A stretch of 64,000 nt of DNA, taken from NCBI GenBank assembly GCA_037201605.1, contig JBBCGM010000002.1:144697-208696 (forward strand), given 5' to 3'. The stretch comes from Candidatus Moraniibacteriota bacterium. Its GTDB lineage: Bacteria; Patescibacteriota; Minisyncoccia; Moranbacterales; UBA1568. Shown here piece by piece: positions 1,848-30,172 of the stretch; the first letter of the stretch is position 1, and each line of letters begins with the position of its first letter. The translations under genes and the position numbers were made by a program. The notes under the pieces are model-generated. The model was not told the origin of the DNA and did not search any database. It worked only from the letters and a program-made list of their open reading frames with translations.

Positions 1848-1850
1848 TGT

Positions 1851-3162: not shown

Positions 3163-3171
3163 AAAATCGCT

Positions 3172-3583: not shown

Positions 3584-3630
3584 CGCAAGTGTCTTCGAAC
3601 ATTGATTGATGTTAGAATAGCTAAGAAGCT

Positions 3631-4309: not shown

Positions 4310-4316
4310 TAAGCGC

Positions 4317-6194: not shown

Positions 6195-6196
6195 AT

Positions 6197-6680: not shown

Positions 6681-7340
6681 ATGAGAGCATTTACCGCACA
6701 TCAAAAGCGATTTATCGGGACGAGCGCCCTCATCCTGCTTTCTCTCGCCTTTTTCGCGTTTTTCGAAGAATCAAGCGGCTTGGGAGCAGCTCTCCAAGGC
6801 AGCATTATCGGACTTGTCTTCTTCTTTGTATTACCGCTTGCCTACTGCCGCCTTGTATTGCGTGAGCCGCTTTCCCACCTCGGCTGGCAGAAAAGCGTCT
6901 ATAACTGGGCCCTTCCTTTCACCCTCCTTGTAACAGCCGCTTGGCTCGCTTTGGAATACCTACTCTCTCTTCGTTTTGGGCAGTTTTCCGAGATGTATTT
7001 TCTGCCGGTGCTGGTCGAACAGCATTTCCCCTGGTTCGTACTCTACGAAATCCTTATGGTGCCGCTCATCGTGGTTGTCTATGAAACCTTTTTTCGCGGC
7101 CTGATCCAAACCCTTTGGCTTTCTACTCTCGGATGGTACGCGGTCCTTGTCCAAGCGGGTCTCTTTTATGCCCTTTTCTTTGTGAGCACCAGTTTTACCT
7201 GGAATGCGCTCCCGCTGCTCCTTTTTGCTCCTGCCCGCCGGTATCATTGCGTACCGTACCCAATCCCTCTGGTTTTCCGTGCTCGCCTCATGGCTTTTTT
7301 TGCTGATAACCGATATCTTTATGCTAGCGGTTCGCTCCTA
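6681..7340 (+). CDS. CPBP-family (CAAX-type) intramembrane protease (frame break ~7230)
   Basis: Polytopic protein with VVVYETFFRGLIQ (an EExxxR-like motif). The corrected C-terminus AGIIAYRTQSLWFSVLA..LITDIFMLAVRS ends at the TAA at 7338-7340. Confidence 0.55.
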
Positions 7341-14937: not shown

Positions 14938-15024
14938 GGAGAAGTGGCCGAGTGGTTGAAGGCACCGCTCTCGAAAAGCGGCATACCCGAAAGGGTATCG
15001 TGAGTTCGAATCTCACCTTCTCCG
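14938..15024 (+). tRNA. tRNA-Ser (anticodon CGA)
   Basis: Acceptor GGAGAAG/CTTCTCC, anticodon stem CCGCT/AGCGG with loop CTCGAAA, long variable arm, T-arm GTGAG-TTCGAAT-CTCAC. Confidence 0.9.
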
Positions 15025-15036
15025 CAGCAACAAAGT

Positions 15037-15065
15037 CCTAGTGCCCTTGCGGTACTAGGCTTTTT
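15037..15065 (+). terminator. Rho-independent terminator after tRNA-Ser
   Basis: Hairpin CCTAGT…ACTAGG followed by CTTTTT. Confidence 0.6.
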
Positions 15066-15104
15066 GAAGGCTAAAAAGGCTTTAGAATAGGCGTATTTTG
15101 ACTA

Positions 15105-15133
15105 TTGACTTTTATCCTTAAAAGGTGTATAAT
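15105..15133 (+). promoter_or_regulatory. Sigma70-type promoter for the DGR target gene
   Basis: TTGACT (15105-15110), a 17-nt spacer, then TATAAT (15128-15133). Confidence 0.65.
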
Positions 15134-15268
15134 AGACCGTTGAACATTAACAATTTCATCACCACAGCTTTTGGGATATCTGCCCTAAGGTAAGCCCAAA
15201 CGCTGTGGTGAAAACCAGAGTCCAGTTTCTCCGGGTGAGGGGATAATTCTAGTGGGCACAGAAGCCCA

Positions 15269-15871
15269 ATGGAGCACATCATGACCAATTTCGCATCAAA
15301 AGATCTGACTGCTGGTGAACTGAACGCTCTGGTCAAGAAGGCTGGTGGCGACGAGAAGGTTCGCAAGTACTTTCCGGTGAGCTCAAGATTCAGCTCCTGT
15401 CGACTACGGCCGAAGCGATCGTGGTTCCGGAATCTGTCGATCAGTTCCTGACCGTCGACCCCGGCCTCGCCTTTGCCGAACGCATCATGCGCGGCAACTA
15501 CGGCTGGCGCAACAGCGATCTCACCGAGAAGCGATTCCCGGTGACGGCCGAACAGGTCGGCGACTGGGAGTGGAAGCTCTTCCACTTCGATCGCGACATC
15601 TCTTCCGAAGAAGCCATCCGGCTGATGAAGGAAGACGGCTACGACGCGGGCCAGATCGGCCACATCCTCACCTTCGGGGAGAAATACCCCGAGGAACAGC
15701 GGAAGTTCCCGATCATCGGTCTCGGCTCGGTCGCCAAGGTCAGCCTGAACCGTGATGTCCCGGGACTGTGGCACGACCTATGGCAAGCGTAAGCTGGGCC
15801 TCAATTGGTTCGGCAGTGACTGGATTCGGTACTACCGTTTCCTCGGCGTTCGCCGGCGCTCGGTCGCTTGA
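15269..15871 (+). CDS. DGR variable (target) protein; the VR encodes its C-terminus (frame breaks ~15370 and at 15777-15778)
   Basis: Pieces 15269..15451 and 15421..15792 join, and the frame-2 tail GKRKLGLNWFGSDWIRYYRFLGVRRRSVA* ends at 15871. The TR reads through the same region in one frame. AAY codons in the TR map to the varied codons. Confidence 0.75.
15725..15854 (+). repeat. DGR variable repeat (VR)
   Basis: Aligns to 16205-16334. There are 11 substitutions, all opposite TR adenines (a>g x7, a>t x3, a>c x1), and none at the 98 non-A positions. There is one extra C at 15777-15778. The last 13 nt (CTCGGCGTTCGCC) are identical and G/C-rich (IMH-like). Confidence 0.9.
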
Positions 15872-15928
15872 GCCTCGGCTCTCTGGTCTTGGGTCCTCGA
15901 ACCCTTTGACCCTTCGGTTTGAATGTTA

Positions 15929-15963
15929 CCCCCTCTTGCAGCGCAGGAGGGGGGATTTTTTTT
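15929..15963 (+). terminator. Rho-independent terminator / GC hairpin downstream of the VR
   Basis: CCCCCTC-TTGCAGCGCAG-GAGGGGG followed by ATTTTTTTT. An extended -10 (TGcTATAAT, 15963-15971) follows immediately. Confidence 0.7.
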
Positions 15964-16204
15964 GCTATAATATACACATCAACAAAGCAGTCTTATGGCT
16001 ACGGCTTAAGACATGTTGGTCGCAAACAAACAGATCAGAATGACAGTGGTCACGATTGCTGTTAGCGTATCGTTTTGATTGTCTCCAAAAAAGACAGAGT
16101 TGGTATCTCTTTCTCACGACTTATGTCGTACAAGATATACAGGTAGGAGAGTGTTTTCTAGAAACTTCAAATACTAGTGCAATAGACGGGAAGAGATACA
16201 AGGT

Positions 16205-16334
16205 GCTCGGTCGCCAAGGTCAACCTGAACCGTAATGTCCCGGAACTGTGGAACGACAATGGCAAGCGTAAGCTGAACCTCAATTGGTTCGACAATGACT
16301 GGAATCGGAACTACCGTTTCCCTCGGCGTTCGCC
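16205..16334 (+). repeat. DGR template repeat (TR)
   Basis: The invariant partner of the VR, with 32 adenines of which 11 are substituted in the VR. It reads as …NLNRNVPELWNDNGKRKLNLNWFDNDWNRNYRF, rich in Asn AAY codons. Confidence 0.9.
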
Positions 16335-16338
16335 ACTC

Positions 16339-16738
16339 TCACTTTTCTCCTTTCTTAATGGAAGGAGTTTTTTGTATCTGTTGGCGTTTCCAGGCTCCGA
16401 GCATACGACCCACTTCTTCCAACGTATTGCTAATATGTGTGTACTTTTTTGTATCGAGAAATTTAGATTCCCAAGCCAGGAGTAAAAGAATTTAATAAGG
16501 TCTACTCGAGAGATTGCCCGATCAATGAGGATGATCTTTTCGGATTTCTGAGAGTAGCTTGCTAGAAAACTATATTCAATGGCATTGAGACAAGTGTCAT
16601 CAATCTTTTCCCTAGAGTATGACGAGCCTGTTTGCTAAAATGTGGAAGATAGCCCTGCCAAATACCGTAAACATCTTTCAACTTTAATACCACTGGTACT
16701 AAATTTGTTTGGGAAAACTGCGGGGGGGGGGTAGCCAT
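16339..16738 (-). CDS. avd: Avd-like accessory variability determinant (four-helix-bundle / 23S-rRNA-IVS protein family), two frame breaks
   Basis: Reconstructed sequence: MATPPPQFSQTNLVPVVLKLKDVYGIWQGYLPHFSKQARHTLGKR|IDDTCLNAIEYSFLASYSQKSEKIILIDRAISRVDLIK|LLLLAWESKFLDTKKYTHISNTLEEVGRMLGAWKRQQ…*. The HFxKxxRxTLGxR and LEEVGRMLGxW motifs are Avd-like. The stop codon is the complement of 16339-16341. Confidence 0.7.
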
Positions 16739-16744
16739 AAAGGA

Positions 16745-17759
16745 ATGAATCAAAGAAAAAATAAAAAATTTACGGATAGCTACAATAAAATCATATCCAT
16801 TGAAAATCTCCTCGATGCTTGGAAGAGTTTCAACGAGGCAAGAAAAGGAAGAAGGATGTCCAACTGTTTGAGTATGGTTTACTCGATAATCTCTTAAATC
16901 TTCAGAGGATTTAGAAAATAAAACCTATACGCACGGAGGATATAAAGCGTTCAAAGTAAATGACCCGAAGCCAAGAGATATTCATAAGGCCAGCGTGAAG
17001 GATAGGGTGCTCCATCACGCCCTTTATCAAGTTTTGGCACCTTTTTATTTTCCGCTCTTTATTTCAGATTCCTATTCTTGTCAAGATAAGAAGGGTACTC
17101 ATAAGGCTTTGAAAGGTTTCAAAAGTTGGAGATAGGGTTCAAAAAATCACACGAAACAGTGCTATGTTCTCAAATGTGATATCAAAAAGTTCTTTGCCAG
17201 TATTGACCAAGATATTCTTATAGAAATTCTAAAAGAGAGAATAGTAGATGAAGATGTTTTGTGGTTATTACAGAGAGTCATTGAGAGCTTTTACTCTACT
17301 AAAAAACGAAAGGGTTTGCCTTTGGGGAATCTCACTTCCCAACTTTTGGTAAATATTTATATGCACGAGTTTGACCAATATATGAAGCAAGAATTGAGAA
17401 TAAAGCACTATATCCGCTATGCAGACGATTTTGTTATTTTTGGAGAGAACGAAGAGTATCTAGTAAAGGTTCTACAGAACATCAAAGACTTTTTGAGGGA
17501 AAAATTACAGTTGGAACTCCACCCGTACAAAGTGTCTATTGAGACCTTGGCAAGCGGAGTAGATTTCTTAGGTTGGGTACACTTCTCAAGACATAGAGTT
17601 ATCAGAACTACCACTAAGAAAAGAATGGTACGGAACCTCAAGAGAAAGTTGGGAAGTGAAGGGTATGAAGCAACAAGAGAATCTTATTTGGGTATGTTAA
17701 GGCATGGGAATGCTTATGAGCTACAAGTGAAAATTGAGAAATTTAATTCAGAACACTGA
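16745..17759 (+). CDS. DGR-type reverse transcriptase (two frame breaks plus an in-frame TAG at 17133-17135)
   Basis: MNQRKNKKFTDSYNKIISIENLLDAWKSFNEARKG…, YKAFKVNDPKPRDIHKASVKDRVLHHALYQVL, CYVLKCDIKKFFASIDQDIL, GLPLGNLTSQLLVNIYMHEFD, IRYADDFVIF and GVDFLGW correspond to RT motifs 1-7, including the DGR-specific SQ signature. Confidence 0.85.
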
Positions 17760-17792
17760 GCCGAATCAGGTTAGAAATGGTTATAGGAGGGC

Positions 17793-17906
17793 GTAACTCT
17801 TATCACTTTTTAGCCTGCACGAGACACGTCGAACAGAGTCTTGAAAATGCGCCAACTTTCCTTAATTGTTTTGATCCCTGAAGGTTCTAAATTGAGCCGG
17901 TCTGCC
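17793..17906 (+). repeat. 114-nt repeat element, copy A
   Basis: GTAACTCTTATCACTTTTTAGCCTGCACGAGAC… aligns without gaps to 26997-27110. The core CACTTTTTAGCCTGCACGAGAC is identical, and the remainder has scattered substitutions. Confidence 0.8.
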
Positions 17907-18208
17907 ATTTAATAAAAACTTAGAAATAGGGTATAATAAAAAAGAATGATTCTTTCTATATCTTATTTTTTAAAATATAGAATTTTCATTTAAAAATACA
18001 AAAATACAAAAAACATAGAAAGAGTATAAAATCTTTTCGTGTAATCCTACCGTATTGAATTCTGCCTCTTCATAAAAATGAAAAGGCTATCGAACGGATT
18101 GAGAGGGAAAAGCGTTACCAGAACGGCTTATCCCAGAATATTTTTTTGTATATATTCTGGAGACATTTTTCTAATGTCGGCCAAATCAGTAGCACTTTCA
18201 TGCCCCTC

Positions 18209-21200
18209 ATGAACAAGTCTCTGCAAACTAATATCTCTTGGGAATAAGCGCATTTATATTTGTGATTTTTTTGGCGTATATACCCGCTTCAGTCCTTGCT
18301 ATTGTCTATGAGCCAGGAGAAACACTTGAGCCGGACTGTACTCCTACAGCTGATGAATGTACCGTCGCAACTTCTGCCGGTAGTATTTCTATAAATGGCG
18401 AATCTGCACAAGCCTTTACTTTTAGCGCCGGTACTACAGGTTTGGACTTTGCAATTGCTGTTTCGAGTGATGCATTGACTTTCAACTTGCCTACTGCTTC
18501 AAGTACCGCTCGCGGCCTTGTCTCGACTGGAACTCAGACATTTGCTGGCGACAAAACCTTCACCGGGTGCAACGACGCTAGCGGCTACCACAGTTTCTGC
18601 CCTTACTATTGGAAGTGATTCCATCGCTGAGTATGTCGCTGATACCGTTGGCCTTATGACTGCCGGTAATACTGAAAGTCTGGTCAGCGTCGTGTATAAC
18701 GATAGTGATAATAAGCTCACTTTCGTTGTGGACAATGACCTTGCTCATTATTCTAACGCTACCAGTGGCTTCATTACTCTGCTTCGCTTTCGGAAACCAT
18801 TACTGGACTTGATTACAACAATACGACTGGTACGTTTTCACTCGCAAGCGGTTATGTGCTTCCTACTACTGCTTCGATCACCGAATGGGATGCGGCAGCT
18901 GATCAGTCACATGTACCACTTACTCTTGGCACTGCAGTGGTCTTTCAATCAATGGTTCCCAGGGTGCTGTCTTTGGGTCTGGCAAGCGGGGGTGTTACGG
19001 GTGCGCTTTCTGGTACTGATTGGAGTACCTTTAACAATAAGGAAAACAGTTTGACTTTTACGGGTAACGGAATTTCAGCAGAAGCGGCGATACTATTACC
19101 GTCACGACATGCTCCGATGGAGAAGTGCTTAAATTTAGCGGCTCATCGTGGTCGTGTGCGGAGACGAAAATACGGACACTAATACGCTCTATGCGGCAGG
19201 GCGGGAATTTCTCTTGCGAGTGACACATTTTCATTCAGCCCGAGTAGCTTGTTGTCAGTCGGTGGAATATCTGGCAGTGATGAAATTATTGTATCGGACA
19301 GCGGTACCCCGAAGCGCATCACCTACGACAATTTGTTTGGGAATGTTCTTGGTTCTCTTAATTACCAAGGTACTTGGAATGCAAATACTGATACGCCTTC
19401 TTTGAGTGGAGCCTGTTCTTCGGGGAGTAAGGGGCATTATTATGTAGTGGAAGTGACAGGAAGCACTGATCTTGATGGTAATGACACATGGAACATCGGG
19501 GACTGGGCAGTCTGTAACGGTTCTGGATGGCAGCGCGTACAAACTGCAAGCGGCGTCTCAAGTGTCTTTGGTCGCGGAGGTGCGGTGACTGCACAAAGTG
19601 GTGACTACAGCGCTAATCTCATTACCAATGCGACCTCAGGATCAATATCTTCGGCGACCGTACAGGAGGCGATCAATGAACTTGATAGCGAAAATTGAGT
19701 GCAGCTCTTACAAGCGGAAGAATTCTTGTGGGTAATTCATCTAACATTGCGACGGCCGTTTCTCTTTCAGGGGATGCAGCTATCAGTAATACGGGCGTAC
19801 TCACGATTGCTGCCAATGCTATCACGACGGGCAAAATAAATGATCTTGCGGTTACAAATGGAAAGCTTGCGGGGGACGCGGTGAATTCAAGTAAAATAGC
19901 AGATGGCAGTATTGTGAATGCGGACGTGAATGCAAGTGCTGGCATCGCACTTTCAAAGCTTGCGGATGGTACAAATATTGTTACCTCATTGGGCACCCCT
20001 TCAGGATCAAACTCAAATGGTGGATCTATCTCATCAAATGTCCTTACGCTCTCTCTCGCAAATACAAGCAACTCGGGCCTTGTGTCACCGGGTACCAGAC
20101 GTTTGGTGGAGCAAAGACCTTTACGAATGCCATTGCTGCCCCCACTACTTCAAATACCATTAATGGTCTGATAATAAACTCTGGGGCTATGAGTGGAGCC
20201 ACAGGGCTCACTTCTTCTGGCACCATTACATTTTCAGATCTCCCAAACGGTTTGGTAAGTGCCTCTTCTGGAGTTCTGGTAGGTGGCGCAACTATCAATA
20301 ATTCAAATTGGTCTGGTACTGATTTAGCAGTAGCAAATGGTGGTACAGGAGTATCGACACTCACGACTAATGGAATCTTGTATGGCAACGGCTCATCGGC
20401 TTTGCAAGTAACGAGCGCGGGTACTTCTGGACAGTTACTGGTTGCAAACGTTTCAGGTATACCTACATTTGTCAGCGCAAGCGGTGATGCTACGCTTGGC
20501 AGTGATGGTACCTTTACCCTTACGAATAACGCGGTGACAAGTGATACGATCGAGAACGGGAGTATCACCTTTGCTGATTTGGCAAGCAACGATTGTAGTG
20601 AAAATCAAATTATGCAGTATAACGGTACAGCCTGGGTCTGTGCCGACATTCCAACAGGTACCGCTTCTGAGGCATGGTTAACAACTGATGGAGAGATACC
20701 CGATTCTATTGAAGATGACATTTATACCAATGGTAACGTAGGTATTGGTACTGATAATCCAGAATTCAAGCTCGAAATTGACAGTGGAGTAGAGGGTCTC
20801 AGCGGTGTTCGCATTACTCAGCTCAATAGCTTGAGTACAACTTCTGCGGGCGCACCGCTTGGCGTGGATGCTAGTGGAATGCTCGTTGTATTAAGTACGG
20901 AGACAACGCTAATGTTCCGTCGGTGGTCGTCTTGGATAACACTATAGGAAATTCTGCATCTGTCACCCAGGCCGGCCGCTATATTGTGCCGCCTGATAAT
21001 CTTAGTGGAGACGTTTGTCGGTCATGCGGATGAATATGCTGACTATGATGGAACCAGCTTTACATTTACCAGTCCCAATACGGGCGATAAGGCGTTAGTT
21101 ACTATTGGGAGTAATGCTGGGAATTTGTATACTTTTAGCGACGAAGGTTGGGGACGCTTACAGGGACAAGTGCCGGAAGCGATGAAACAAACTCGCAGCT

Positions 21201-22510
21201 TGAACTTTATCCGTACTGGTAGTACTCAGTCCGTTGCTGCGGATGGTACATATATATTTAATACTATTAGGCCTCAAAAATAATTCAGATATAACTCCTA
21301 ATTTATCGACAGGGGAAATAACTCTTCTGCCTGGCGTATATCGTGTATCATCACAATCAGTGGGTGCCAAAAGACTGTTCATTAATGGTGTAGAGGATGC
21401 TACTTCTGGTGCTGCAACCAACACTATGATGGAACATACTATCAAAGTCTATACCCCATCTATTCTCACCATGAGAGCTGTTTCTTCTGCGACGCTCGCT
21501 CTTCAGACGAATGCAGTGCAAAGTAATATGATAATCATGAAAGTTGACTCTACCACCGCTACACTGTCATCGCTCTCTAACGGTTACGCTACCAATGCGG
21601 TCGATGGCAAGACAACAAGTGTAACTTTCACAATGCCTGCTGCGGCAAATCATGATGGAAATCTTGTATTCTTACGGTAGTAACGGCTACAGGGGCGACC
21701 GTTTCAAATGTCAGTACGCCAGTCTTTAATTCTTCAACAGGAAAAGTGACCTTTACGGCAGATATCGCGATGGCAGACGACCCCAGTTTAAATGTTCCAG
21801 ATACAAAGTCGATTACCTATAACATTACCATCGGCGCTTACAGTGCCACAGCTTCTGGAACTGTTGTAACTGATTGCTATTGCCCGGAGCGCTCAGCACC
21901 AGCCAGTCGTCTTACGCTGCGGCAAACAGCGGAGACGTAGTAAGGATCACAGCCGCCGAATACGACAGTGTAGCCCAAATTATGGGTGCAGCCCGCTATG
22001 GAATTGAAGATGCAAAAATACCGCAAGTCGAGGCTGGCTCACCGTATGAGGCGGGAAACTTTGCGATGACTTTCTGCCAAATGTTGCGGGGATTACAAAG
22101 TTACCAGCAATAATTACGTTGTCGCTTTCAAATACTATGGTGGCACTATTCCAACAAACGCATCTCAGCCTGCTACGGGCGTGGAGCATATTTCACTTCT
22201 GGGCAGCCCGACTGCAACGACCACGACCACCGGTTTTAGTCCTATCGTCACAACGAATCAGGCCATTCCTACTGCAAATGTTATAAACTATTTCGTCATA
22301 AAAACACCGAGCACTGTACCAAGCAGTACTCAAAGCGTCCAATTGGCGCTTGAGGCAGGCTCCGTAAGGTATAGGGCGACTACTTTCACAGGCGGAAGTA
22401 CTGCTTACTACACGACACCGTCTTATCCAACTCCTCCGACATCAATAGGTACAACATGGAATGCAATTGCCTTCTATCAAGCAATTGGAACACCCACAAA
22501 GAATTGGTAA
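18209..22510 (+). CDS. Tail-fibre-like repeat protein locus (one giant gene or a few genes; at least 10 frame breaks)
   Basis: Eleven overlapping or abutting + ORFs run from 18238 to 22510. Recognisable motifs are a signal-like N-terminus, GLVSTGTQTFAGDKTFTG and GLVSPGTQTFGGAKTFT, ITTGKINDLAVTNGKLAGDAVNSSKIADGSIVNADV, YQGTWNANTDTPSLS…GDWAVCNGSGWQRV and GNVGIGTDNPEFKLEI. All are fibre-type motifs as I recall them. Confidence 0.5.
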
Positions 22511-22515
22511 TCAGT

Positions 22516-23168
22516 ATGGTATTCAAGAAACTGACAAAAAAAACAAAAGGTTACATAGTAATTCCCATACTTCTTATCGGTCTTGGATGCCTCTACTACT
22601 TTGTCTTGCGAACCCCTCAACAAAAAATGGGTGCTAATTATAAAGTCGATGCAAATACAGCAAGACAAGTAATCAGTGAATTGAAGACAATTTATCCGAG
22701 CGCAGACGATAATAAGCAAATTACAGTCACTTATATCGGTGATCCTACTAGCCTTGCATCTATCGAAGACCTCAAAAAAGCTCAACCAGGTGATTATCTT
22801 ATAAAATTTGACTATCGCAATCATGCTGTATTATGGCGGTCGACGACTGAAAAAATCATTACTATTATCGACACCAATCTGTTGTTAATCTCGTAGTATC
22901 TACTACCGTTAGTGATCAATTTGCTGCGAGAATAGCGAAACTAATTGAAGCTTCTTCGCCAGCTATCAGCGTTCAGGTGATGCGGATGCAGAGCAATACG
23001 CCGCATAATATAATTGTTGTCAACAACCCTCATTTTGAAGCGAGTGCCAATGCCCTTGTGAAAGATTTAGGCGGTGAGATCGGAGAGTTGCCGGAGGGAC
23101 AAAAAGCCGATCCCGAAGCCAGTTTGCAGATATTCTTAAACCAAGAATTTGCCTTGGAGGAGAGATAG
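22516..23168 (+). CDS. Membrane-anchored protein with a possible LytR_C-like C-terminus (frame break ~22896)
   Basis: MVFKKLTKKTKGYIVIPILLIGLGCLYYFVL is an N-terminal anchor. The tail …NIIVVNNPHFEASANALVKDLGGEIGELPEGQKADPEASLQIFLN lies in ORF 22977..23168. Confidence 0.35.
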
Positions 23169-23256
23169 TATCATTAATGATGAAATGAGAAAAAACCAAG
23201 CGATGGGATATAATAATCAGAGTGAGAGAAAGATGGAGAAAAAATAAATAAAAAGT

Positions 23257-24014
23257 ATGCCAAAATCTAATGTAGAGAAGAACGAAATTTCGGATACTGC
23301 AGAATCTGTATCCATGACCAAGGACGAAGTACCGACTCTGTCTTCCTTGAAAAAAAGAGAAAAGACAGTTTTGAGAAAGACCCCTCCAACTTCAAACAAA
23401 ACCAAGAGTACGGTTTGGACCATGCTTTTTGTTGGGGCATTACTGGTAATAGCTTTGGTAATCCATGAGATCCGCTTCGAATCATTCTTCTTCTCAAAAA
23501 TCCTGATAAAGAGCTTGCCAGGGCGCTTGCGGCGTAGAAGAGTATATGCTCTTGCCTCAAGGAGAGGAAGCGATCCTTGCCACTGTGAAGGATGCCAAAA
23601 CCCTGACAGCAGACCAACCCTTTTTACCGGAAGCATTGATGGCGATCAACTCTTAGTTTTTCCAGAGTCGCGCAAAGCAATTATTTGGAGTCCAACGCGT
23701 AAGATAATCGTGAATGCTGGTCCAATTCAGGATAATATGGCTGCAAATAATGCGAGTGGAGAATCATCAGTAAAGATCCTCAGAACCCTGTAGCTATGGA
23801 AGCTACTGCTTCGCAGAGAGAAACCGTATCGGTTGAGGTTCGGAACGGCACCAGTGAAAGTGGCTTGGCCTCTCGGATAGCGGATGATATTAAGGACCGC
23901 GAAGGTTTTGATGTAAGTACGGTCGGGGACGCGGCGAATCAAGAGTACGAGCAAACAGTCATTTTTGTCCTGACACAGAGTGAATCAGTACGTACTCGAG
24001 CCAAGAGCTCCTAG
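23257..24014 (+). CDS. Membrane-anchored LytR_C-domain-like protein (frame breaks)
   Basis: A TM helix (VWTMLFVGALLVIALVI), then VSVEVRNGTSESGLASRIADDIKDREGFDVSTVGDAANQEYEQTVIF in ORF 23796..24014. Confidence 0.4.
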
Positions 24015-24147
24015 AAGCATTCAAAGCCGAAAGGATTGAGACACTTCCATCTGGTGAAAAGACAACTGGAGGGGATATCTTAATGATACTAGGTGCAAAT
24101 TAAAAAGGAGAGTAGTAAGAGAAGAAATACAAACAAAAAAAGAGATC

Positions 24148-25403
24148 ATGACTGTGTATGCCCGTCCATGTTTATCACCAATACGATATATCCTTGTGAC
24201 AGGAACATTTTTAGGATGGTTTTTGTGGCTTTTTTTCTTAATGTTTCTTTCTTCCTGTGCTGGCTTCTGAAACTGAGGGTATCATCCTCACTGGCGGTAA
24301 CGAGGGACACGCCTGGAGCGATCAGGTGGGCTGGATCAACTTTGGGACTTTCAAACGGTGCCATTAGAATACTGATGCTGGCCTTACTGGTTTTGCCTGG
24401 AGCACGAATACCGGTTGGATAAATATGTCTCCAGCCAATGGAGGGGTAGCGGTCGCGGATAATGGATCGCTTTCCGGTAGTGCGTGGGGAGAGGGTCTTG
24501 GCTGGATTGATTTCTCTAATGTATCTATTGATGCAACTGGACTATTTGTTGGCACAGCAACAGGAGACCAGGTGGGTACTATCAATTTCAACTGCGCGAA
24601 TTGCTCTGTACGTACTGACTACCGAGCTGTTGATTTTCGTGACATTGAGGAAGAGGCTTCTGATGAATCTTCTGATAATGACGGAGACGGCTCGTCCGAC
24701 CGAGAAAGGGTTTCATCGACAGCTCTTGGCAACCCTATTTTTTCTGATACAGGAACACAGACAAATAATGAAGTATCTACTGGAGGGGACTGAAGAAGAA
24801 AATGGTAATCCATCTCAACTGTTTGATATTCGGCTTCTTATTAATCAGCCGATCGTTCCAAGTATTACGGATCTAGTTGCTCAGGTGACATTTGAGAGCT
24901 TCGGAAACGTGCCAACGCCGGTCGAGATGTATTTTATGATCCTCGATAGCTCTGGAAATGTTTCGTGGGAGGGTGTCGAAACTGTTACTGTGGAGACGAC
25001 TCTAGTATTTACTAAAAATTTCGGCGATCTCCACCAGCGTCCTGATGGAAATTACACGCTTCGTCTTCGAACACTTTATAATAATGGGGTCGAGGATACC
25101 TTTGAAGAGTCCTTTGAGATACGAACTGATAAAGGAAAGGCCTGGTGGATTCTCTGGGTAATTGGAGCGTTTCTTCTGATTTTATTTGTGCTATGGCTCC
25201 TTCTTTGGAAGCGTTGCGTATGTGATTGCAAAGAAGAAGATAAAGAATGTTTGGCCAACTGTGAGGAGAAGGTGTCAGTGGCGAAAAAGATATATTGCCA
25301 CAGGCATGTCATTTTCAGTCGGACTGCTGGGAGTAAGCCTCTACGCTATGCTTTTTGCAGTTATCTTCAAGGGTGGATGGCTCAATCTTTCTTTTCGGGA
25401 TGA
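24148..25403 (+). CDS. Secreted GW-repeat protein (GWINF / GWINM / GWIDF) with a beta-sandwich-like region and a C-terminal TM (frame breaks)
   Basis: Collinear pieces 24093..24422, 24425..24793 and 24462..25403. The motif W(S/G)…GWI(N/D)(F/M) recurs. The C-terminal anchor is AWWILWVIGAFLLILFVLWLLLW. Confidence 0.45.
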
Positions 25404-25671
25404 GTTTGGTAACATGCTGATCTTTGCGATATTTACAGCATTTGCCTGGATAGCTAAGTCATATATGTTGAAGGATAAGGCGCGTACGCTTGTGATCGTT
25501 GGCGCACTGATAATTATGACAAAGATTCTGGTAGAAATTATTCTGCGAGACTATGTAGTAAGCGTCCGGAAAGTGGTATCGAGTTCTACCTCTTTCTTTC
25601 AGGATCGCTACTTTCAGCGGAGTATTGTGCATATTGGCAGCAACTCACAGGCTCTCATCACAATTAAATAA
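25306..25671 (+). CDS. Small integral membrane protein
   Basis: MSFSVGLLGVSLYAMLFAVIF…, three hydrophobic helices. This is an internal Met of ORF 25186..25671. Confidence 0.4.
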   Translation: MSFSVGLLGVSLYAMLFAVIFKGGWLNLSFRDEFGNMLIFAIFTAFAWIAKSYMLKDKARTLVIVGALIIMTKILVEIILRDYVVSVRKVVSSSTSFFQDRYFQRSIVHIGSNSQALITIK

Positions 25672-25677
25672 AAAAGC

Positions 25678-25944
25678 ATGACTTCCATTCCAGTAAGCAC
25701 CATGTTGGCTGTAGGTTGCTCCACCATCATGTTTTGGGTAGTGAGTATGCTGATCATTAGTCATAAAAAGATTTGGGCGTTCTTTCCATTTTTTCTCTGG
25801 GCCGCTTTGTTTAATGTGTTTGGAGCATTGAGTTATTATAACCTCACTTCTCGCTCTATCGAGATATCTCTCAATCTAGCACTCTTCAGTTTTTATCTTC
25901 TTATGCTGATCGTCTTACTCCGTCTTATTCGTAAACAATTATGA
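25678..25944 (+). CDS. Small integral membrane protein (88 aa)
   Basis: Three predicted TM helices. It starts 7 nt after the previous stop. Confidence 0.45.
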   Translation: MTSIPVSTMLAVGCSTIMFWVVSMLIISHKKIWAFFPFFLWAALFNVFGALSYYNLTSRSIEISLNLALFSFYLLMLIVLLRLIRKQL

Positions 25945-26416
25945 TGAATATAGCTCCACTTATTCTTGCTAGCGAATTTCTTCAGCACGTTCTTGTTATT
26001 GTTCTTGTTGGTATTGTCTGCGTCGATGTTTTCGAGCATGGTCAGGTACTTCTCAAGAAAAAGGGGAGTCCTGTTTTCTCTTAGCTGCGATTTTATTAGC
26101 AGCCATTTCGTCCATATCAAGCTACTTTGTTGATTTGAACAGTGAAATGTACTGCATGTTCGTTCACGTCCCTATTGCGATTTTAGTACCGTTATTCATA
26201 TGGCGTGCCCTTCGACACACAAAGAATAGGCGAATAGTTAGTCTGTGGCTTGCTCTCGTCCTCGTGGAGCTTTCTTTCGATAAGTATTTGTGTCTTTCAC
26301 GTACATCTCGATATGTATGTTGATTGGATGGAACTCGCTCATGCAGTTATTGATACAGCAGAAATCATCCTCCTCTACTTTCTTGTTATTTGTCATTGCA
26401 TCATGGAACCAAAAAA

Positions 26417-27017
26417 ATGAGATTCATACTGCGCAACTCCACTCTTTTTTCTGTAACTGCTTTTATAGTAGGCGGCTTTTTTATTCCCCAATCAACCTCC
26501 GCATTAAGTATTGCAACATATATAAGTGATCAGTCATCAGAGGTACTGAGCGGCGATAGGCTATATTTTCAGGTCGAGGTTAAATATCCTGAAAACCAGG
26601 ACCGAATCGATTTACGTGTCGATATCAGATAGTCGAAAATGGAGAAGTAATAGCTCGCTCGCAGGTATTGGCGCGCGGTCGAAACACAAGCATCTTTTTC
26701 TTGATTATATCGTCGTACCGAAAAGTGCAGATGATGGTCTCCATGATTTACGTGTCGTGATTACCGATTATGACGGAGAATTAAATGAAGAGGTGATAAC
26801 TACGTTTACGGTACTCAAGGGAGCAAATCAAGTTACCACATACTTTTTCATCCTTCTTGGCACTATTTTAATTGGTAGGAGTGCTTGTAATGGTACAGAT
26901 AGTTTTTTTGAGTCGGCGAGGGGAAAATATTGCGTCCAGCATAATAATGTCTTGATATTAGTGACAGTAGAGTGTAATTTTATGATCCTTTCCTGTGTAA
27001 CTTTTGTCACTTTTTAG
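26417..27017 (+). CDS. Secreted protein with a C-terminal TM segment (frame break ~26630)
   Basis: Signal peptide MRFILRNSTLFSVTAFIVGGFFIPQSTSA. The organisation (beta-rich region, then the TM YFFILLGTILIG) parallels the C-terminal half of 24148..25403. Confidence 0.4.
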
Positions 27018-27110
27018 CCTGCACGAGACGCGTTGAAAGGAGACTTGAAAATATGCTAAAATCTCCTTAACTGGCTTGATTTCTTTTGGTTCTAACACGA
27101 GACGGCCCGC
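26997..27110 (+). repeat. 114-nt repeat element, copy B
   Basis: Direct-orientation partner of 17793-17906. It overlaps the last 7 codons of the preceding ORF, as copy A overlaps a short ORF remnant ending …ITF*. Confidence 0.8.
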
Positions 27111-27144
27111 ACTGAGTATTAGTATCGGATGACCCAGATACGCG

Positions 27145-27169
27145 AAACCGCCAAAGATGGCGGTTTTTT
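27145..27169 (+). terminator. Rho-independent terminator
   Basis: AAACCGCC-AAAGAT-GGCGGTTTTTT. Confidence 0.75.
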
Positions 27170-27212
27170 GGTGGTATCATAGAATCATTGAATTTTCCTT
27201 AGAAGCATAGCC

Positions 27213-28031
27213 ATGCTCAACTTTTTTTCATCAAAAAGAGAGAATGAGAAATTCGGTCTTCCGCATGCAGTGCTTAATCTTTCCAAAATCGGACTCCGCT
27301 ATTTTCGCATAGGCATAAATGCTTCCCTGGAATCTCAGGAAAAGCTGGTGGCCAAATTAGTGAACCATCCGAATGTCGGATGGATTTTTTTATGCCGAAG
27401 GATACTTTAATTTAGCCGTCGGCATTTGGGCAAAAGACAATGCGGAAATTAATGATGTGAGTCAGCAGGTACGGAATATCTTAAGCCCTGACGATGAAAT
27501 CATTTTCCAATCGGAACTTACGAGCCTGTACAGCTTTGGGAATCGGCCGGTATCAGGAAATGGAGAGCCTATGTGCATAGTCGATTCTACGCTCAGTCCC
27601 ATAAATCTTGCTCCCTTAGAGATTGATTATCTGAAACTCGTGGCTCTGGATAGCTCGCTCCAAAAGAAGAATTAGCGAAAGTTTTGAGCGTCGATGTCTC
27701 TCGTCTGAGGAACTAGAGAAGAATCTTATAAGTACAGGAGTGATTGTGGGACAGCAGGAACGGATAAATTACGGGGGCATATACCTCAAGGTATTCGTAG
27801 ATACGCTTAGTCGGAAAACAAAGGGAGCGGAAAGTGAAACTCGTAAAAAAACTTTGGAAAGATGAAGCTTGCATATATTTTGCTCGTGCCAACAGCAAGT
27901 ACGACTTGGAATTCGAGCTCATTCTGAATAACAAATCCCAGCAAAAAGAGTATCTGGAAAACTTTTCCGACTACAAAACGGCAGTTCTGACCAAGAATGT
28001 CTATACCAACCTCTATCCGGTAAATAGGTAG
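27213..28031 (+). CDS. Lrp/AsnC-like regulator with tandem RAM-like modules and an internal HTH (frame breaks)
   Basis: …LVAKLVNHPNVGWIF/YAEGYFNLAVGIWAKDNAEINDV… is RAM-like. LEIDYLKLVALDSSLQKKELAKVLSVDVSRL is wHTH-like. A second module follows: GIYLKVFVDT… /ACIYFARANSKYDLEFELIL. Confidence 0.35.
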
Positions 28032-28176
28032 CCAATCTAAAAGAGATCAAAGACACCCTCCTCAAGCAGGAAGGAAGCGAAATCAATCTCAAAAATTCCA
28101 AACTCTGGTATTTGAATTATGCTGGCGCCGAAGCCTATCTGAATATCTATTCTGGAACAAGCACTATTTCGAAACT

Positions 28177-28521
28177 ATGGAGAAAGGTGAACTCGATCTG
28201 TTCGATGAAATCGCAAAATATCTGAACCAACAGTACCCTGAGGAGCGATTCAGCCTAGTTGATATAGGTAGCGGAGATGGCCAGAAGGCAAGAGTATTTG
28301 CCGAAAAAGTAGGAGAAAAATTGATAAAAGCTTACTACCCTGTCGATATCCAGCCAATAGAATTAGCCGCTGCTTTGTATGCTCATTCTGAGGGAAAGTA
28401 CGCAAAACACCCGACACTGCTCGATTTCGCCAATCTTTCTTCGCGCTTTCCTCTCAAGATGCAGCCCAACGAAAAACAATTTTATGAGAAGTGGATTGGC
28501 ATCACCCTCCCAACGGATTGA
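28177..28521 (+). pseudogene. SAM-dependent methyltransferase fragment (EgtD / methyltransf_33-like), 3'-truncated
   Basis: FSLVDIGSGDGQKARVF is a motif I. Similarity ends near ~28485, where the sequence becomes the antisense of the hsdM remnant. Confidence 0.4.
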
Positions 28522-29450
28522 ATAAGGTGGATTGGAAACAATGGGCATCAAAGGGCTCGTCGTCCCAGTGTTTTGGATCAATGAGCGTGTCCCCATGCGC
28601 AATATTAAAGTGGTTATAGTTTATATCATGCAAAAACATGTTAATACGTGCGAGATTATAAGTCGTAAGATTAATTTCCCTGACCGAAGAATCCTATTTG
28701 TACGTTTTCCTTGCCAAGAACTTTGGGCGAACTTGAGAAGAAGAGAACCAGAGCCACAGGCTGGGTCGTATACCTTGTTTACTTCTTTTTTTCCAATCGT
28801 GGTAGATTTGTGCAAGAAGCTCACTTACTTCTTGCGGCGTGTAGAATTCGCCACCCCGATTTACCAGCACTGGAAGCATACATAGTCATGAGGAACTCGT
28901 ATGCATCACCGAAGGCATCTATGGTGTTGTCGGTATACGCACCAAGCTTGAGATCCCCGATAGCATCCAGGAGCTTGACTAGCCGTTCATTTCGCCGCTC
29001 CACAGTATTACCAAGCTTGTTGCTATTTACATCCAAATCGTCAAAGAGACCCTTGATATCGTTCTCGCTATCAGCACCTTTAGCAGAGTTTTCAATATTA
29101 CGGAACACTATGGCAAGGGTTTCATTAAGGTTCGTGTCGTTCTTTGCTTTCTTACGGACATTCACAAAAAAGTTCTGACGGAGGGATGTAGAAGCCCTTT
29201 TCTTTCACTGTGTCGACACGCCCGAATTCAGCCTCTCTTGTCGGAGAGAGCAGCATAGTCAAAATCCTTACGGCCAGCACGGCGCTCGTCTTCATTTATA
29301 TAGATAGTAAGATTCTCACTAATGAAACGATAAAAAAGCATGCCAAGAACATACTGTTTTGAAGTCCCAGCCATCCACACTTCCCCGTAAATCATTAGCA
29401 ATCTGCCAGATAGCACGATGCAATTCTGAACGCTCCTGTTCTTTTGTCAT
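28487..29450 (-). pseudogene. hsdM: Type I restriction-modification N6-adenine methylase HsdM, frame-shifted and 3'-truncated
   Basis: Collinear minus-strand pieces carry LHRAIWQIANDLRGSVDGWDFK, YVLGMLFYRFISENL, GEFYTPQEVSELLA, VYDPACGSGSLLL and [12 protein letters not shown]. The sequence stops being HsdM-like after …ANPLLI. No hsdS or hsdR lies nearby. Confidence 0.8.
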
Positions 29451-29899
29451 ATTTTTTAATCTGTACCCCCTTTTTATACATCGGAAAATACGGAAGTGCA
29501 TCCAGAGCAATATAATTAAACATCCAATAATTTGCTCTCCGAGCAGTTTCTGAGAGTTGATGTTTTTTGAGATGCTTTTTAGGAATAAAGGGGTAGAAGC
29601 GTATTTCTTGGTGCGTTCCCGTTTTATCTTCCCACTTGAAATTTGCAATGAGTGGCGGTACTGAAAATCCAGACTTTAAAACCTTATCAATAATCTCCCA
29701 GCCAGCTCCAAAAATAATGTTTTTTGGTTTGCAATTATTAGTCTTCACTTGAGCTCGGAAAGAGCATCCTGTGCATTGGACATTCATACAAAGGGTAATT
29801 CTTAGGTAGAAGCATGAGTTTTTTTGAGCAATTTGGGCAAGAAACTAACTCCACGACATCAAGTTCACCCTGGTCACCAGAGATATGATTTTTTGCCAT
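29395..29899 (-). CDS. DpnI-like (restriction-endonuclease-like) protein (frame break ~29790)
   Basis: MAKNHISGDQGELDVVELVSCPNCSKKLMLLPKNYPLY|VQCTGCSFRAQVKTNN…IIFGAGWEIIDKVL follows the CPNC…NxP…DxxCxxC…xxK…GAx pattern of the DpnI catalytic domain as I recall it. Confidence 0.45.
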
Positions 29900-29901
29900 A
29901 T

Positions 29902-30079
29902 CTATTTTTTCCAATCCTTAATTTGTACTCCCCCGCGAATACGCTTGATGACGACTTTCTGCTTTTCCTTCCAGCCGAGCTCACGCACGACACCAATAGG
30001 CAAAGTAAGACCCGATAGACTTCCCACCTACCTTGGTGAGTTTCCTGATATTTTCTTCTCCCCTCTTCTTGTCTGCCAT
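29902..30079 (-). CDS. AbrB/MazE/SpoVT-family DNA-binding protein (one frame break)
   Basis: MADKKRGEENIRKLTKVGGKS|SLTLPIGVVRELGWKEKQKVVIKRIRGGVQIKDWKK*. The stop is 2 nt before the DpnI-like start codon. Confidence 0.55.
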
Positions 30080-30097
30080 AGGTGAAATATGTACGGG

Positions 30098-30120
30098 ATT
30101 ACGTAATCTTTTACGTAATT
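30098..30120. promoter_or_regulatory. Two TTACGTAA palindromes upstream of the AbrB-like gene (candidate operator)
   Basis: ATTACGTAAT (30098-30107) and TTACGTAATT (30111-30120) lie 19-41 nt upstream of the minus-strand ATG at 30079. Confidence 0.45.
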
Positions 30121-30172
30121 CTATTCTACCACCAATCCCCCTTCCTTCTCCAGAAAAGGCTTTGTAGAGCCT

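What the first reader, a model, noticed from the sequence alone, without database searches (positions are those of the whole stretch)
17793..27110. Two direct copies of a 114-nt element bracket a 9.2-kb AT-rich segment starting right after the DGR RT
17793-17906 and 26997-27110 align without gaps. The 22-nt core CACTTTTTAGCCTGCACGAGAC is identical and substitutions are scattered elsewhere. Both copies begin inside the last codons of an ORF ending …(I/V)TF*. Copy A starts 34 nt after the RT stop. The interval holds the fibre-like locus and surface-protein genes. Candidate explanations are attL/attR-like scars of an integrated cassette, a 3' cis element or ncRNA shared by two transcription units, or a recombination substrate for cassette excision or exchange. 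I saw no clear compensatory base changes, so a structured RNA is not supported by eye.
Basis: seen in the sequence. Interest (0 to 1): 0.6.

Follow-up and report, generated by a model that had tools for sequence, protein, structure and literature searches.

The report
Conserved intergenic repeat beside a DGR
The two 114-nt copies are real and belong to a small, undescribed family of conserved non-coding repeats found just after gene ends next to diversity-generating retroelements in a few Patescibacteria; they are not the integration scars of a 9.2-kb element, and their function is still unknown.

Summary
The repeat is real. Copy A is 17793-17910 and copy B is 26997-27112, both on the + strand. 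They are about 75-78% identical, share a 23-nt identical core, and need one 1-nt gap to align.

It is not unique to this genome. A profile of the element, here called T, finds it in two other Patescibacteria DGR loci. In L009-L012 it starts 33 nt after the RT stop, as copy A does. In L008 there are three direct copies, which bracket the DGR and a CYTH gene.

T is absent from seven other loci whose RTs are 65-80% identical, so it is not an obligatory DGR part.

T is non-coding. The 32-aa minus-strand ORF is broken in 4 of 6 copies. T shows no RNA structure or covariation and has no Rfam match.

Copy B is closer to L009's copy (86-88%) than to copy A (75%). No recombinase is nearby, and the low-GC island (15.9-30.15 kb) extends beyond both copies. 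An attL/attR reading is therefore poorly supported.

All six copies sit within 0-33 nt of an upstream ORF's end, and synteny between genomes breaks at T's edges.

My best reading, which is inferred, is a portable module-boundary element that marks the 3' ends of gene blocks and supplies homology for swapping those blocks. It may also carry a promoter. Moderate interest.

The parts
17793..17910 (+). Element T, copy A (short form). It begins 33 nt after the RT stop.
   Evidence: nhmmer E=3e-29. It is positionally orthologous to L009 1641-1758. The window-L009 alignment runs unbroken from the TR through the RT and T and stops at 17928. It is 70% identical to L009's T and 75% to copy B. Its -10-like motif is degraded.
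26950..27135 (+). Element T, copy B (long form). The 115-nt body is 26997-27112. A left extension of about 45 nt is shared with L008 copy 1.
   Evidence: nhmmer E=1e-33. The body is 86-88% identical to L009's T over exactly 26995-27109. The local alignment with L008 3816-3978 spans 26950-27111. A further AGTATCGGRWGAC match to about 27135 appears only in the MAFFT alignment.
17803..17825 (+). Identical 23-nt core TCACTTTTTAGCCTGCACGAGAC. The same core lies at 27007-27029 in copy B.
   Evidence: The 18-mer CTTTTTAGCCTGCACGAG is identical in 4 of 6 family members. L009 has 1 mismatch and L008 copy 3 has 4. The TAG inside the core ends upstream ORFs in copy B and in L008 copy 2.
17760..17792 (+). 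33-nt spacer between the RT stop and copy A
   Evidence: About 70% identical to the same spacer in L009. This shows that copy A was inherited together with the RT.
16745..17759 (+). DGR reverse transcriptase gene, read in at least three frames (frameshifted)
   Evidence: sequence. The stitched protein gives hits with E down to 6e-178, all PF00078, many from Patescibacteria. Called fragment with RVT_1.
16342..16693 (-). avd (bAvd) accessory gene, frameshifted twice
   Evidence: tblastn of L009's Avd gives 91-94% identity in three frames. bAvd Pfam hit in relatives.
16205..16334 (+). DGR template repeat (TR), followed by a hairpin and T-run at 16347-16367
15260..15870 (+). DGR target gene (GC-rich, frameshifted) with the variable repeat at 15725-15854
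   Evidence: 11 of 11 substitutions are at TR adenines, plus two 1-nt indels. Homologous to the target gene in L013.
17911..26949 (+). The bracketed interval. It is a co-directional block of fragmented fibre-like, LytR_C and membrane or surface-protein ORFs, with a promoter-like site at 17909-17937 at its head.
   Evidence: No recombinase domain was found. There are no close homologues elsewhere.
27033..27062 (+). Promoter-like site inside copy B (TTGAAA-18-TG-n-TAAAAT)
   Evidence: The same architecture is in L009's copy (TCGAAA-18-TG-n-TAGAAT). It is degraded in copy A and in L008 copies 2 and 3.
27145..27169 (+). Intrinsic-terminator-like hairpin and T-run about 35 nt after copy B
   Evidence: coordinates.
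14938..15025 (+). tRNA-Ser(CGA) at the left edge of the low-GC island (about 15.0/15.9-30.15 kb)
   Evidence: No repeat of the tRNA 3' end occurs at the right edge of the island.

Best explanation
Shown:
- The two copies are paralogous members of a small family of conserved, non-coding, essentially unstructured intergenic elements, here called T.
- The T body is about 115 nt; a long form is about 165 nt.
- T occurs in a few Patescibacteria lineages at the 3' ends of gene blocks in DGR-bearing islands. The window genome is a Candidatus Moraniibacteriota MAG.
- In one DGR sub-lineage, T is the last part of the conserved DGR cassette and starts right after the RT stop. Copy A is that copy and has decayed.
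- Copy B closes the next co-directional block, the 9.2-kb fibre and surface-protein genes. It is the better-preserved copy.

Inferred:
- T acts as a portable module-boundary element. Because it sits at the end of each block and has an invariant 18-23-nt core at its left edge, T-bearing DNA can be gained or lost next to the DGR by recombination between T copies. This would be Campbell-type insertion or deletion, either homologous or by an unidentified site-specific enzyme.
- That would explain arrays such as T-[DGR]-T-[CYTH]-T in L008 and [DGR]-T-[9.2 kb]-T here.
- T may also work as a transcriptional boundary. A T-tract, a -35 and a TG-extended -10 promoter are intact in copy B and in L009.
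- T is not needed for DGR mutagenesis itself.
For: 1. Family membership. nhmmer finds T only in the window (2 copies), L008 (3 copies: 3862-3979, 6313-6426, 7043-7151) and L009-L012 (L009 1641-1758), with E from 1e-27 to 1e-33. Two further copies appear as spurious ORFs, P0169 and P0170.
2. Position. The RT-adjacent copies lie 33 nt (window, L009) or 18 nt (L008) after the RT ORF. CYTH and ORF 26616-27017 both end at the TAG inside the core. The distance to the next gene varies from 14 to about 330 nt, and three of six copies are followed by a separate near-consensus promoter.
3. Arrays of direct copies bracket discrete blocks: the L008 DGR (VR/TR at 4951/5480), the CYTH gene, and the window's 9.2-kb block.
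4. Synteny breaks at T's edges. Window-L009 homology is 79.7% over 1732 nt and ends at 17928. Copy B-L009 homology is confined to 26995-27109. Copy B-L008_1 homology is confined to 26950-27111.
5. Copy B is 86-88% identical to L009's T but 75% to copy A. A four-point comparison groups B with L009. This fits import or retention rather than a recent in-place duplication.
6. Conservation is uneven. An 18-nt block, CCTT and GGTTCTA are invariant against a 54-69% background between lineages.
7. Not coding. The minus-strand ORF is intact only in copy A and, at its C-terminal end only, in L008_1.
8. Not a structured RNA, and no Rfam match.
9. Promoter-like motifs occur in copy B and L009.
Against: - No recombination event has been observed. 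There are no reads, no empty site and no circular junction.
- No recombinase gene is near any T-bearing locus.
- The copies lack the inverted-repeat architecture typical of recombinase core sites.
- At 75% identity with a 23-nt identical stretch, homologous recombination between A and B would be inefficient.
- Homology confined to the element is expected of any repeated sequence, so that point is weak on its own.
- The grouping of B with L009 rests on about 105 sites and could be a long-branch effect of a decaying copy A.
- The sample is small: three organisms with DNA in hand.
- Only 64 kb of the 346-kb replicon could be searched, so the true copy number is unknown.
- The promoter motifs are intact in only 2-3 of 6 copies, and copy B is followed by a terminator before the next gene.
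Confidence: 0.4

Rival explanations
1. Purely cis-regulatory element. T is a promoter plus a short leader, or a 3'-UTR or termination signal, that has been copied to several intergenic sites. It plays no role in recombination.
For: - T-tracts, a -35 (TTGAAA/TCGAAA), an 18-nt spacer and a TG-extended -10 are present in copy B and L009.
- L008_1 has a TG-n-TAGAAA motif.
- In L009 the next gene starts 14 nt after T.
- All copies lie in intergenic positions between co-directional genes.
- The middle of T resembles the TR promoter region in L008.
Against: - The motifs are degraded in copy A and in L008 copies 2 and 3.
- Independent near-consensus promoters follow T in three of six cases.
- Copy B is followed by a terminator before the next gene.
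- T is absent upstream of homologues of the genes that follow copy B (L069, L070).
- The most conserved block lies upstream of the -35, not in the hexamers.
Confidence: 0.22
2. attL/attR of a 9.2-kb element integrated by a site-specific recombinase. The 23-nt identical core would be the crossover site.
For: - The copies are direct repeats with an identical 23-nt core.
- The interval is low-GC with phage-like fibre genes. There is a weak BppL_N hit.
- RTs of this clade also occur next to a terminase.
Against: - Similarity extends about 90 nt on one side at only about 75% identity.
- Copy B is nearer to another organism's copy than to A.
- No integrase is present.
- Low GC continues on both sides of the interval.
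- The same element forms a three-copy array around unrelated genes in L008.
- The genes to the right of copy B are equally low-GC.
Confidence: 0.07
3. Functionless relic. An old duplicated stretch of non-coding DNA is drifting, and its conserved blocks are chance or mutational cold spots.
For: - Copy A and the 33-nt spacer are about 70% identical to L009, below the cassette average of 79.7%.
- This suggests little constraint on copy A.
- No structure and no coding capacity were found.
Against: - An 18-nt block and GGTTCTA are invariant across lineages that are otherwise 54-69% identical.
- The family is retained in at least 5 lineages and in multiple copies per locus.
- Copy B and L009 are 86-88% identical, above the cassette average.
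Confidence: 0.15
4. Small RNA gene. A transcript of about 100 nt would start near 27069 and end at the 27145-27169 terminator.
For: Copy B has a promoter-like site inside it and a terminator after it.
Against: - No terminator follows copies A, L009, L008_1 or L008_2.
- Fold z-scores are 0.2 to 1.1 and there is no covariation.
- There is no Rfam match.
Confidence: 0.08
5. Small protein gene on the minus strand (MADRLNLEPSGIKTIKESWRIFKTLFDVSRAG, 17811-17909).
For: - The 32-codon ORF with an ATG is intact in copy A.
- The N-terminal MA(D/G)xLxLEP and the C-terminal SRAG* recur in translations of other copies.
Against: - The frame is broken by indels or stops in copy B, L009, L008_2 and L008_3.
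- Conserved nucleotide blocks keep register across frame changes.
- The RAG* codons show no synonymous variation.
- The right extension shared by copy B and L008_1 is conserved in different frames.
Confidence: 0.03

Closest known systems
Integron attC sites and cassette arrays
   Same: One element sits at the 3' end of each gene block. It often overlaps the stop codon and forms direct arrays (T-[DGR]-T-[CYTH]-T). The body is variable and there is a short invariant core at one edge.
   Different: - T has no imperfect palindrome and no folded single strand (z about 0).
- It has no GTTRRRY / RYYYAAC cores.
- No IntI-type integrase and no attI-Pc platform were found.
- The blocks include a whole multi-gene DGR and a 9-kb operon.
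Conserved boundary or linker sequences at module junctions of mosaic phage genomes (from my own knowledge of the phage-mosaicism literature)
   Same: These are short conserved intergenic sequences at gene-block boundaries where homology between otherwise unrelated neighbours begins and ends. They were proposed as substrates for homologous exchange of modules.
   Different: They have not been shown for Patescibacteria or for DGR loci. T is longer, has a strictly invariant core, and is repeated within a single locus.
attL/attR of integrative elements (e.g. islands at tRNA genes)
   Same: Direct repeats with an identical core flank a low-GC block, and a tRNA-Ser gene is nearby.
   Different: - The repeats are only 75% identical over about 115 nt.
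- There is no integrase.
- The repeats do not coincide with the island's edges.
- The tRNA 3' end is not repeated.
DGR cis elements (TR/VR, IMH, the hairpin after VR, the spacer RNA after TR)
   Same: T lies inside a conserved DGR cassette block, directly after the RT, in three lineages.
   Different: - T has no similarity to TR or VR and no adenine-specific mismatches.
- It is absent from seven loci with RTs 65-80% identical.
- It is present at sites with no RT next to them.
Dispersed intergenic repeats (REP/BIME, MITEs)
   Same: Short, non-coding, multi-copy and intergenic.
   Different: No terminal inverted repeats, no palindromic hairpin and no target-site duplication. Only two copies occur in 64 kb.

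Membership tests
attL/attR of an integrated element | Near-identical direct repeats at the two ends that share the crossover core | tested here: inconclusive
   There is a 23-nt identical core, but overall identity is about 75% with an indel. Copy B is closer to L009's copy (86-88%) than to copy A.
attL/attR of an integrated element | An integrase or recombinase encoded in or beside the element | tested here: not met
   No recombinase Pfam family appears among the called genes for window 2193-40865. None appears in 20 ORFs of 18.2-29.8 kb scanned against Pfam. Caveat: many genes are frameshifted.
attL/attR of an integrated element | The repeats coincide with the boundaries of the foreign DNA, and relatives have an empty site | tested here: not met
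   Low GC runs from 15.9 to 30.15 kb, beyond both copies. An empty site could not be tested because no relative of the interval was found.
Integron attC | Imperfect palindrome that folds as a single strand, with RYYYAAC...GTTRRRY cores | tested here: not met
   Fold z-scores are 0.17, 0.40, 1.11 and -0.23. Consensus energy is about -3 kcal/mol. The core motifs are absent on inspection.
Integron attC | An integron integrase with attI next to the array | tested here: not met
   No Phage_integrase hit in the gene tables. None of the ORF translations listed for L008 looked like an integrase, by inspection only.
Structured non-coding RNA (any Rfam family) | Match to a covariance model at or above its gathering score | tested here: not met
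   Only tRNAs pass gathering. The best E-value over the copies is 0.56-1, far below gathering. Nothing in L008 or L009.
Structured non-coding RNA (novel) | Conserved helices supported by compensatory changes | tested here: not met
   0 compensatory pairs on the + strand and 1 on the - strand. The covariation score equals the shuffled value. Only 6 sequences were available.
DGR cis element (TR/VR/IMH) | Similarity to the TR, with mismatches confined to adenines | tested here: not met
   TR/VR are at 16205-16334 and 15725-15854 with 11 of 11 adenine substitutions. T shares no repeat with them. A-versus-B differences are of all types.
DGR cis element (obligatory cassette part) | Present in related DGR cassettes | tested here: not met
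   Present in 3 lineages. Absent in L013-L016, L017, L018, L019, L066 and L067/68, whose RTs are 65-80% identical.
Small protein gene | Open reading frame conserved among copies | tested here: not met
   Intact with an ATG only in copy A. Frameshifts or stops occur in copy B, L009, L008_2 and L008_3.
MITE / IS-derived repeat | Terminal inverted repeats and a target-site duplication | tested here: not met
   No inverted repeat involves the copies. The flanks differ at each copy.
Sigma-70-type promoter | -35 and -10 hexamers at 16-18 nt spacing, conserved among copies | tested here: inconclusive
   Present with a TG extension in copy B (27033-27062) and in L009 (1677-1706). Degraded in copy A and in L008 copies 2 and 3. 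No transcript data.

The most novel reading that the evidence does not exclude
T is the recombination site of an undescribed cassette-capture system in Patescibacteria. Like an integron, it would have one site at the 3' end of each cassette and a crossover at the invariant CTTTTTAG|CC core. Unlike an integron, it would use an unstructured site and an unknown enzyme. The system would load gene blocks (fibre or surface-protein operons, CYTH, even the DGR itself) next to a DGR.
Probability: 0.1. Interest if true: 0.75.

Novelty: new member of a known kind. Interest (0 to 1): 0.38.

Why it matters
DGR loci in Patescibacteria (CPR) are abundant, but their surroundings are almost uncharacterised. 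This conserved non-coding element closes the DGR cassette in one sub-lineage. It recurs at the ends of neighbouring gene blocks.

If it mediates block exchange, it could help explain how CPR DGR islands pick up surface or fibre genes. If it is only a transcriptional boundary or a decaying duplicate, the finding is ordinary.

Either way, the element gives a searchable marker: an 18-nt core plus a profile. That marker makes the question testable on existing metagenomes and long reads.

Tried and rejected
- **Exact 19-mer scans of public collections.** The GTDB genome scan gave three hits with no flank similarity, which is the number expected by chance. The IMG/VR scan gave none. The JGI metagenome scan gave one chance hit (L007) and one real locus (L008).
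- **Gapped and degenerate patterns in IMG/VR.** One found nothing and the other gave one chance hit. Forty-five viral RT loci carry no T.
- **BLAST against phage and plasmid collections.** No match.
- **Rfam with relaxed thresholds.** Only noise.
- **RNA-RNA pairing of T with the TR region** (the idea of a trans-acting spacer analogue). z = -0.6 and +1.9, so rejected (one search timed out).
- **Small minus-strand peptide.** Attractive at first, because the N- and C-terminal motifs recur. Rejected once six copies showed broken frames.
- **T as the regulatory region of the Lrp-like and methyltransferase genes that follow copy B.** Homologues in L069 and L070 lack T.
- **A relative of the 9.2-kb interval, to find an empty site or a T-flanked copy elsewhere.** Only the genome's own protein and short motif matches came back.
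- **Repeat of the tRNA-Ser 3' end at the island's right edge.** None.
- **By-eye resemblance to dif/Xer sites, hix sites, an RP4-type nic site and a retroviral-type primer-binding site.** I noted these and dropped them because they are not conserved among copies. This was inspection only, not a formal test.


Full report
**1. The observation**

The window holds two direct copies of an element of about 115 nt, at 17793-17910 and 26997-27112.
- The 22-mer CACTTTTTAGCCTGCACGAGAC occurs exactly twice, and shuffles give zero expected matches even with three mismatches.
- The copies are about 75-78% identical and need one 1-nt gap, so 'align without gaps' is not quite right.
- Copy A begins 33 nt after the stop of a DGR reverse transcriptase.
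- Copy B overlaps the end of ORF 26616-27017 (...VTF*). At copy A the corresponding frame is open for only eight codons.

**2. Context**

*The source record.*
- The window comes from NCBI contig JBBCBH010011046.1 (346,371 bp, assembly GCA_037975565.1). A protein from it is labelled Candidatus Moraniibacteriota.
- The window wraps the contig ends at 28479|28480. Both copies lie in the contiguous part.
- Many genes are frameshifted. The RT is in at least three frames, avd is in three frames, and UvrA is split. This is typical of unpolished long reads, or of decay.

*The DGR.* It is real and has the architecture target, then TR, then avd on the minus strand, then RT.
- VR is at 15725-15854 and TR at 16205-16334. 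All 11 substitutions are at TR adenines.
- avd is at 16342-16693 on the minus strand, and the RT is at 16745-17759.

*The island.*
- A low-GC island (about 0.43 against 0.53-0.54) runs from about 15.9 to 30.15 kb, next to tRNA-Ser (14938-15025). It extends beyond both copies.
- The interval between the copies is a co-directional block of fragmented fibre-like, LytR_C and membrane or surface-protein ORFs. It has no recombinase domain.
- None of the called genes for window 2193-40865 carries a recombinase Pfam family.

**3. The element elsewhere**

An exact 19-mer scan gave only chance hits in GTDB genomes and none in IMG/VR. In JGI metagenomes it recovered L008, a 13.6-kb low-GC contig that also carries a DGR (VR 4951-5081, TR 5480-5610).

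A profile built from the copies finds three direct copies in L008:
- 3862-3979, upstream of the DGR target gene;
- 6313-6426, 18 nt after a truncated RT;
- 7043-7151, overlapping the stop codon of a CYTH gene.

The L008 array is therefore T-[target, TR, avd, RT']-T-[CYTH]-T.

I then looked at the closest RT homologues.
- The 78%-identical RT of L009-L012 is followed by T at the same place as copy A, 33 nt after the stop.
- T is absent from:
  - L013-L016, where the RT is 80% identical and an HTH gene follows it;
  - L017;
  - L018 and L019, where the cassette sits between rplO and secY;
  - L066, where the RT is next to a terminase;
  - L067/68;
  - 45 viral RT loci.
- A search of 1.84 billion representative proteins, using a translation of copy B as the query, found two more copies called as spurious ORFs, P0169 and P0170.

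T is a real but rare family. It is linked to one DGR sub-lineage but is not obligatory for DGRs.

**4. What T is not**

*Not coding.* The minus-strand ORF MADRLNLEPSGIKTIKESWRIFKTLFDVSRAG is intact only in copy A. Copy B, L009, L008_2 and L008_3 have frameshifts or stops. The conserved nucleotide blocks keep their register across frame changes.

*Not a recognisable structured RNA.*
- Single-sequence fold z-scores range from -0.2 to 1.1.
- Consensus folds are about -3 kcal/mol, with 0-1 compensatory pairs.
- The covariation score equals the shuffled value.
- Rfam gives nothing.

*Not other known kinds.*
- It is unrelated to TR/VR.
- It shows no significant pairing with the TR region.
- It has no terminal inverted repeats.
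- It is not found in the phage or plasmid collections.

**5. What T looks like**

*Conservation is uneven.*
- CTTTTTAGCCTGCACGAG (18 nt) is identical in four of six copies. L009 has one mismatch and L008_3 has four.
- CCTT and GGTTCTA are invariant.
- The rest is 54-69% identical between lineages.

*Left and right contexts.*
- The left edge of universal homology is at this core.
- To the left of the core there are at least two kinds of context. One is the RT 3' end plus a 33-nt spacer (copy A, L009). The other is a 45-nt extension shared by copy B and L008_1.
- All six copies start 0-33 nt from the end of an upstream co-directional ORF.
- The distance to the next gene varies from 14 to about 330 nt. 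Three copies are followed by an independent near-consensus promoter. Copy B is followed by a terminator, and L008_3 by a terminator-like hairpin.
- Copy B and L009 carry a T-tract, a -35 (TTGAAA or TCGAAA), an 18-nt spacer and a TG-extended -10. This is degraded in copy A and in L008 copies 2 and 3.

**6. Relationships among the copies**

- Window-L009 homology is 79.7% over 1732 nt. It runs from the TR through the RT and copy A and ends at 17928.
- Copy A is only 70% identical to L009's T, whereas copy B is 86-88% identical to it, over exactly the 115-nt body.
- A four-point comparison with the L008 copies groups B with L009. This rests on about 105 sites, and copy A has a long branch.
- So A and B are not a fresh in-place duplication. 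Either B was imported or retained under constraint, or A has decayed quickly.
- The genes to the right of copy B are an Lrp-like regulator and a Methyltransf_33 protein. Their homologues in other CPR genomes have no T upstream.

**7. Interpretation**

*What is shown.* T is a conserved, non-coding, unstructured element. It sits at the 3' ends of gene blocks in DGR islands of a few Patescibacteria. Copy A is the cassette-terminal copy, and copy B closes the next block.

*What I infer (confidence about 0.4).* T acts as a module-boundary element whose shared sequence lets gene blocks be inserted or lost beside the DGR by recombination between copies. It possibly also serves as a transcriptional boundary.

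*Against this.* No event has been observed, there is no recombinase, the site has no recombinase-like architecture, the sample is small, and only 64 of 346 kb was searched.

*Rivals and my weights.*

| Rival | Weight |
|---|---|
| Purely regulatory element | 0.22 |
| Functionless relic | 0.15 |
| Small RNA | 0.08 |
| attL/attR of a 9.2-kb element | 0.07 |
| Small peptide | 0.03 |

**8. Comparison with known systems**

- The arrangement works most like integron cassette arrays, with one site at each cassette's 3' end, or like the conserved boundary sequences of mosaic phage genomes.
- T fails the defining tests for attC: no palindrome or fold, no core motifs, no IntI.
- It also fails or is inconclusive on the tests for att scars: low identity, no integrase, and edges that do not match the island.
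- I found no description of such an element in DGR surveys. Wu et al. 2018 (PMC5758913) says nothing about non-coding, mobile or direct-repeat elements or about the region downstream of the RT. It does note that its B3 architecture, a variant in avd/TR order and orientation, accounts for 90% of its CPR set.

**9. Verdict**

- The att-scar reading is unlikely.
- The '3' element shared by two units' reading is right about position but not about RNA structure.
- The 'recombination substrate' reading remains open.

This is a new member of the broad class of conserved intergenic repeats, of moderate interest. There is about a 10% chance that it marks a new cassette-capture system.

Noticed in passing
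window 28479|28480: The window joins the end (record position 346371) and the start (position 1) of the same contig. ORF 28177-28521 reads across the joint, and homologues align up to 28485. The record is therefore probably a circular 346-kb replicon, which would be very small for a Patescibacteria genome.
   Followed up: partly
window 15260-17759 and elsewhere (e.g. UvrA at about 37.4-40.0 kb): Frameshifted genes occur throughout. The RT is in at least three frames, avd is in three, the target gene is split, and UvrA is split into 483-aa and 272-aa pieces. Several indels lie in homopolymer runs. This suggests uncorrected long-read errors rather than, or as well as, real decay.
   Followed up: partly
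window 15725-15854 vs 16205-16334: The DGR looks recently active. All 11 TR-to-VR substitutions are at TR adenines (7 A>G, 3 A>T, 1 A>C). However, the VR also carries two 1-nt indels relative to the TR that break the target reading frame.
   Followed up: yes
L018 4366-6330; L019 about 400-3085: DGR cassettes with RTs 65-72% identical are inserted in the ribosomal-protein operon directly upstream of secY. In L018 the cassette lies between rplO (L15) and secY; L019 shows only the secY side. In L018 no target gene lies between L15 and avd.
   Followed up: no
L066 34-2525: An RT 80% identical to the window's lies tail-to-tail with a terminase large-subunit-like gene (faint GpA_ATPase hit) and a weak HTH_Tnp_1_2 gene. 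This DGR clade may therefore also occur on phages.
   Followed up: no
window 14938-30150: A low-GC island (0.43 against 0.53-0.54) starts next to tRNA-Ser(CGA) and ends sharply at the 3' end of an SDR gene at about 30.15 kb. The tRNA 3' end is not repeated at the far edge, and no integrase is present. The DGR target gene inside the island is GC-rich (0.6), as it is in the low-GC contig L008.
   Followed up: partly
window 28824-29648 (-) and 28177-28521 (+): There is a truncated HsdM: the N-terminal domain and only the first 25 positions of N6_Mtase. There is also a short Methyltransf_33-like ORF. These look like gene remnants at the right end of the island.
   Followed up: partly
protein P0169 (84 aa, Logan contigs up to 15 kb); P0170 (50 aa, NCBI contig 4.2 kb): Two further copies of T exist as spurious ORF calls. 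The N-terminus of P0169 (MAEREGF...) looks like the antisense translation of a tRNA gene. T may therefore lie about 60 nt upstream of a tRNA there. The contigs could not be fetched.
   Followed up: no
L008 5188-5220: A 33-nt stretch at the promoter in front of the TR resembles the middle of T (67-73% identical to the three copies). This may be chance in AT-rich DNA, or a shared promoter-like core.
   Followed up: no
window 62898-63725; 50948-51400 and 57463-57621: There are three tandem 276-nt repeats (66-77% identical). Repeated 48-66-nt segments also lie inside the large minus-strand gene (1012 aa) and in a second gene. These are probably repeat domains of surface proteins.
   Followed up: no
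window about 2900-6200: Type IV secretion or conjugation-like genes (PrgI, TraC-like, AAA_10/TraG P-loop) lie about 10 kb upstream of the DGR.
   Followed up: no
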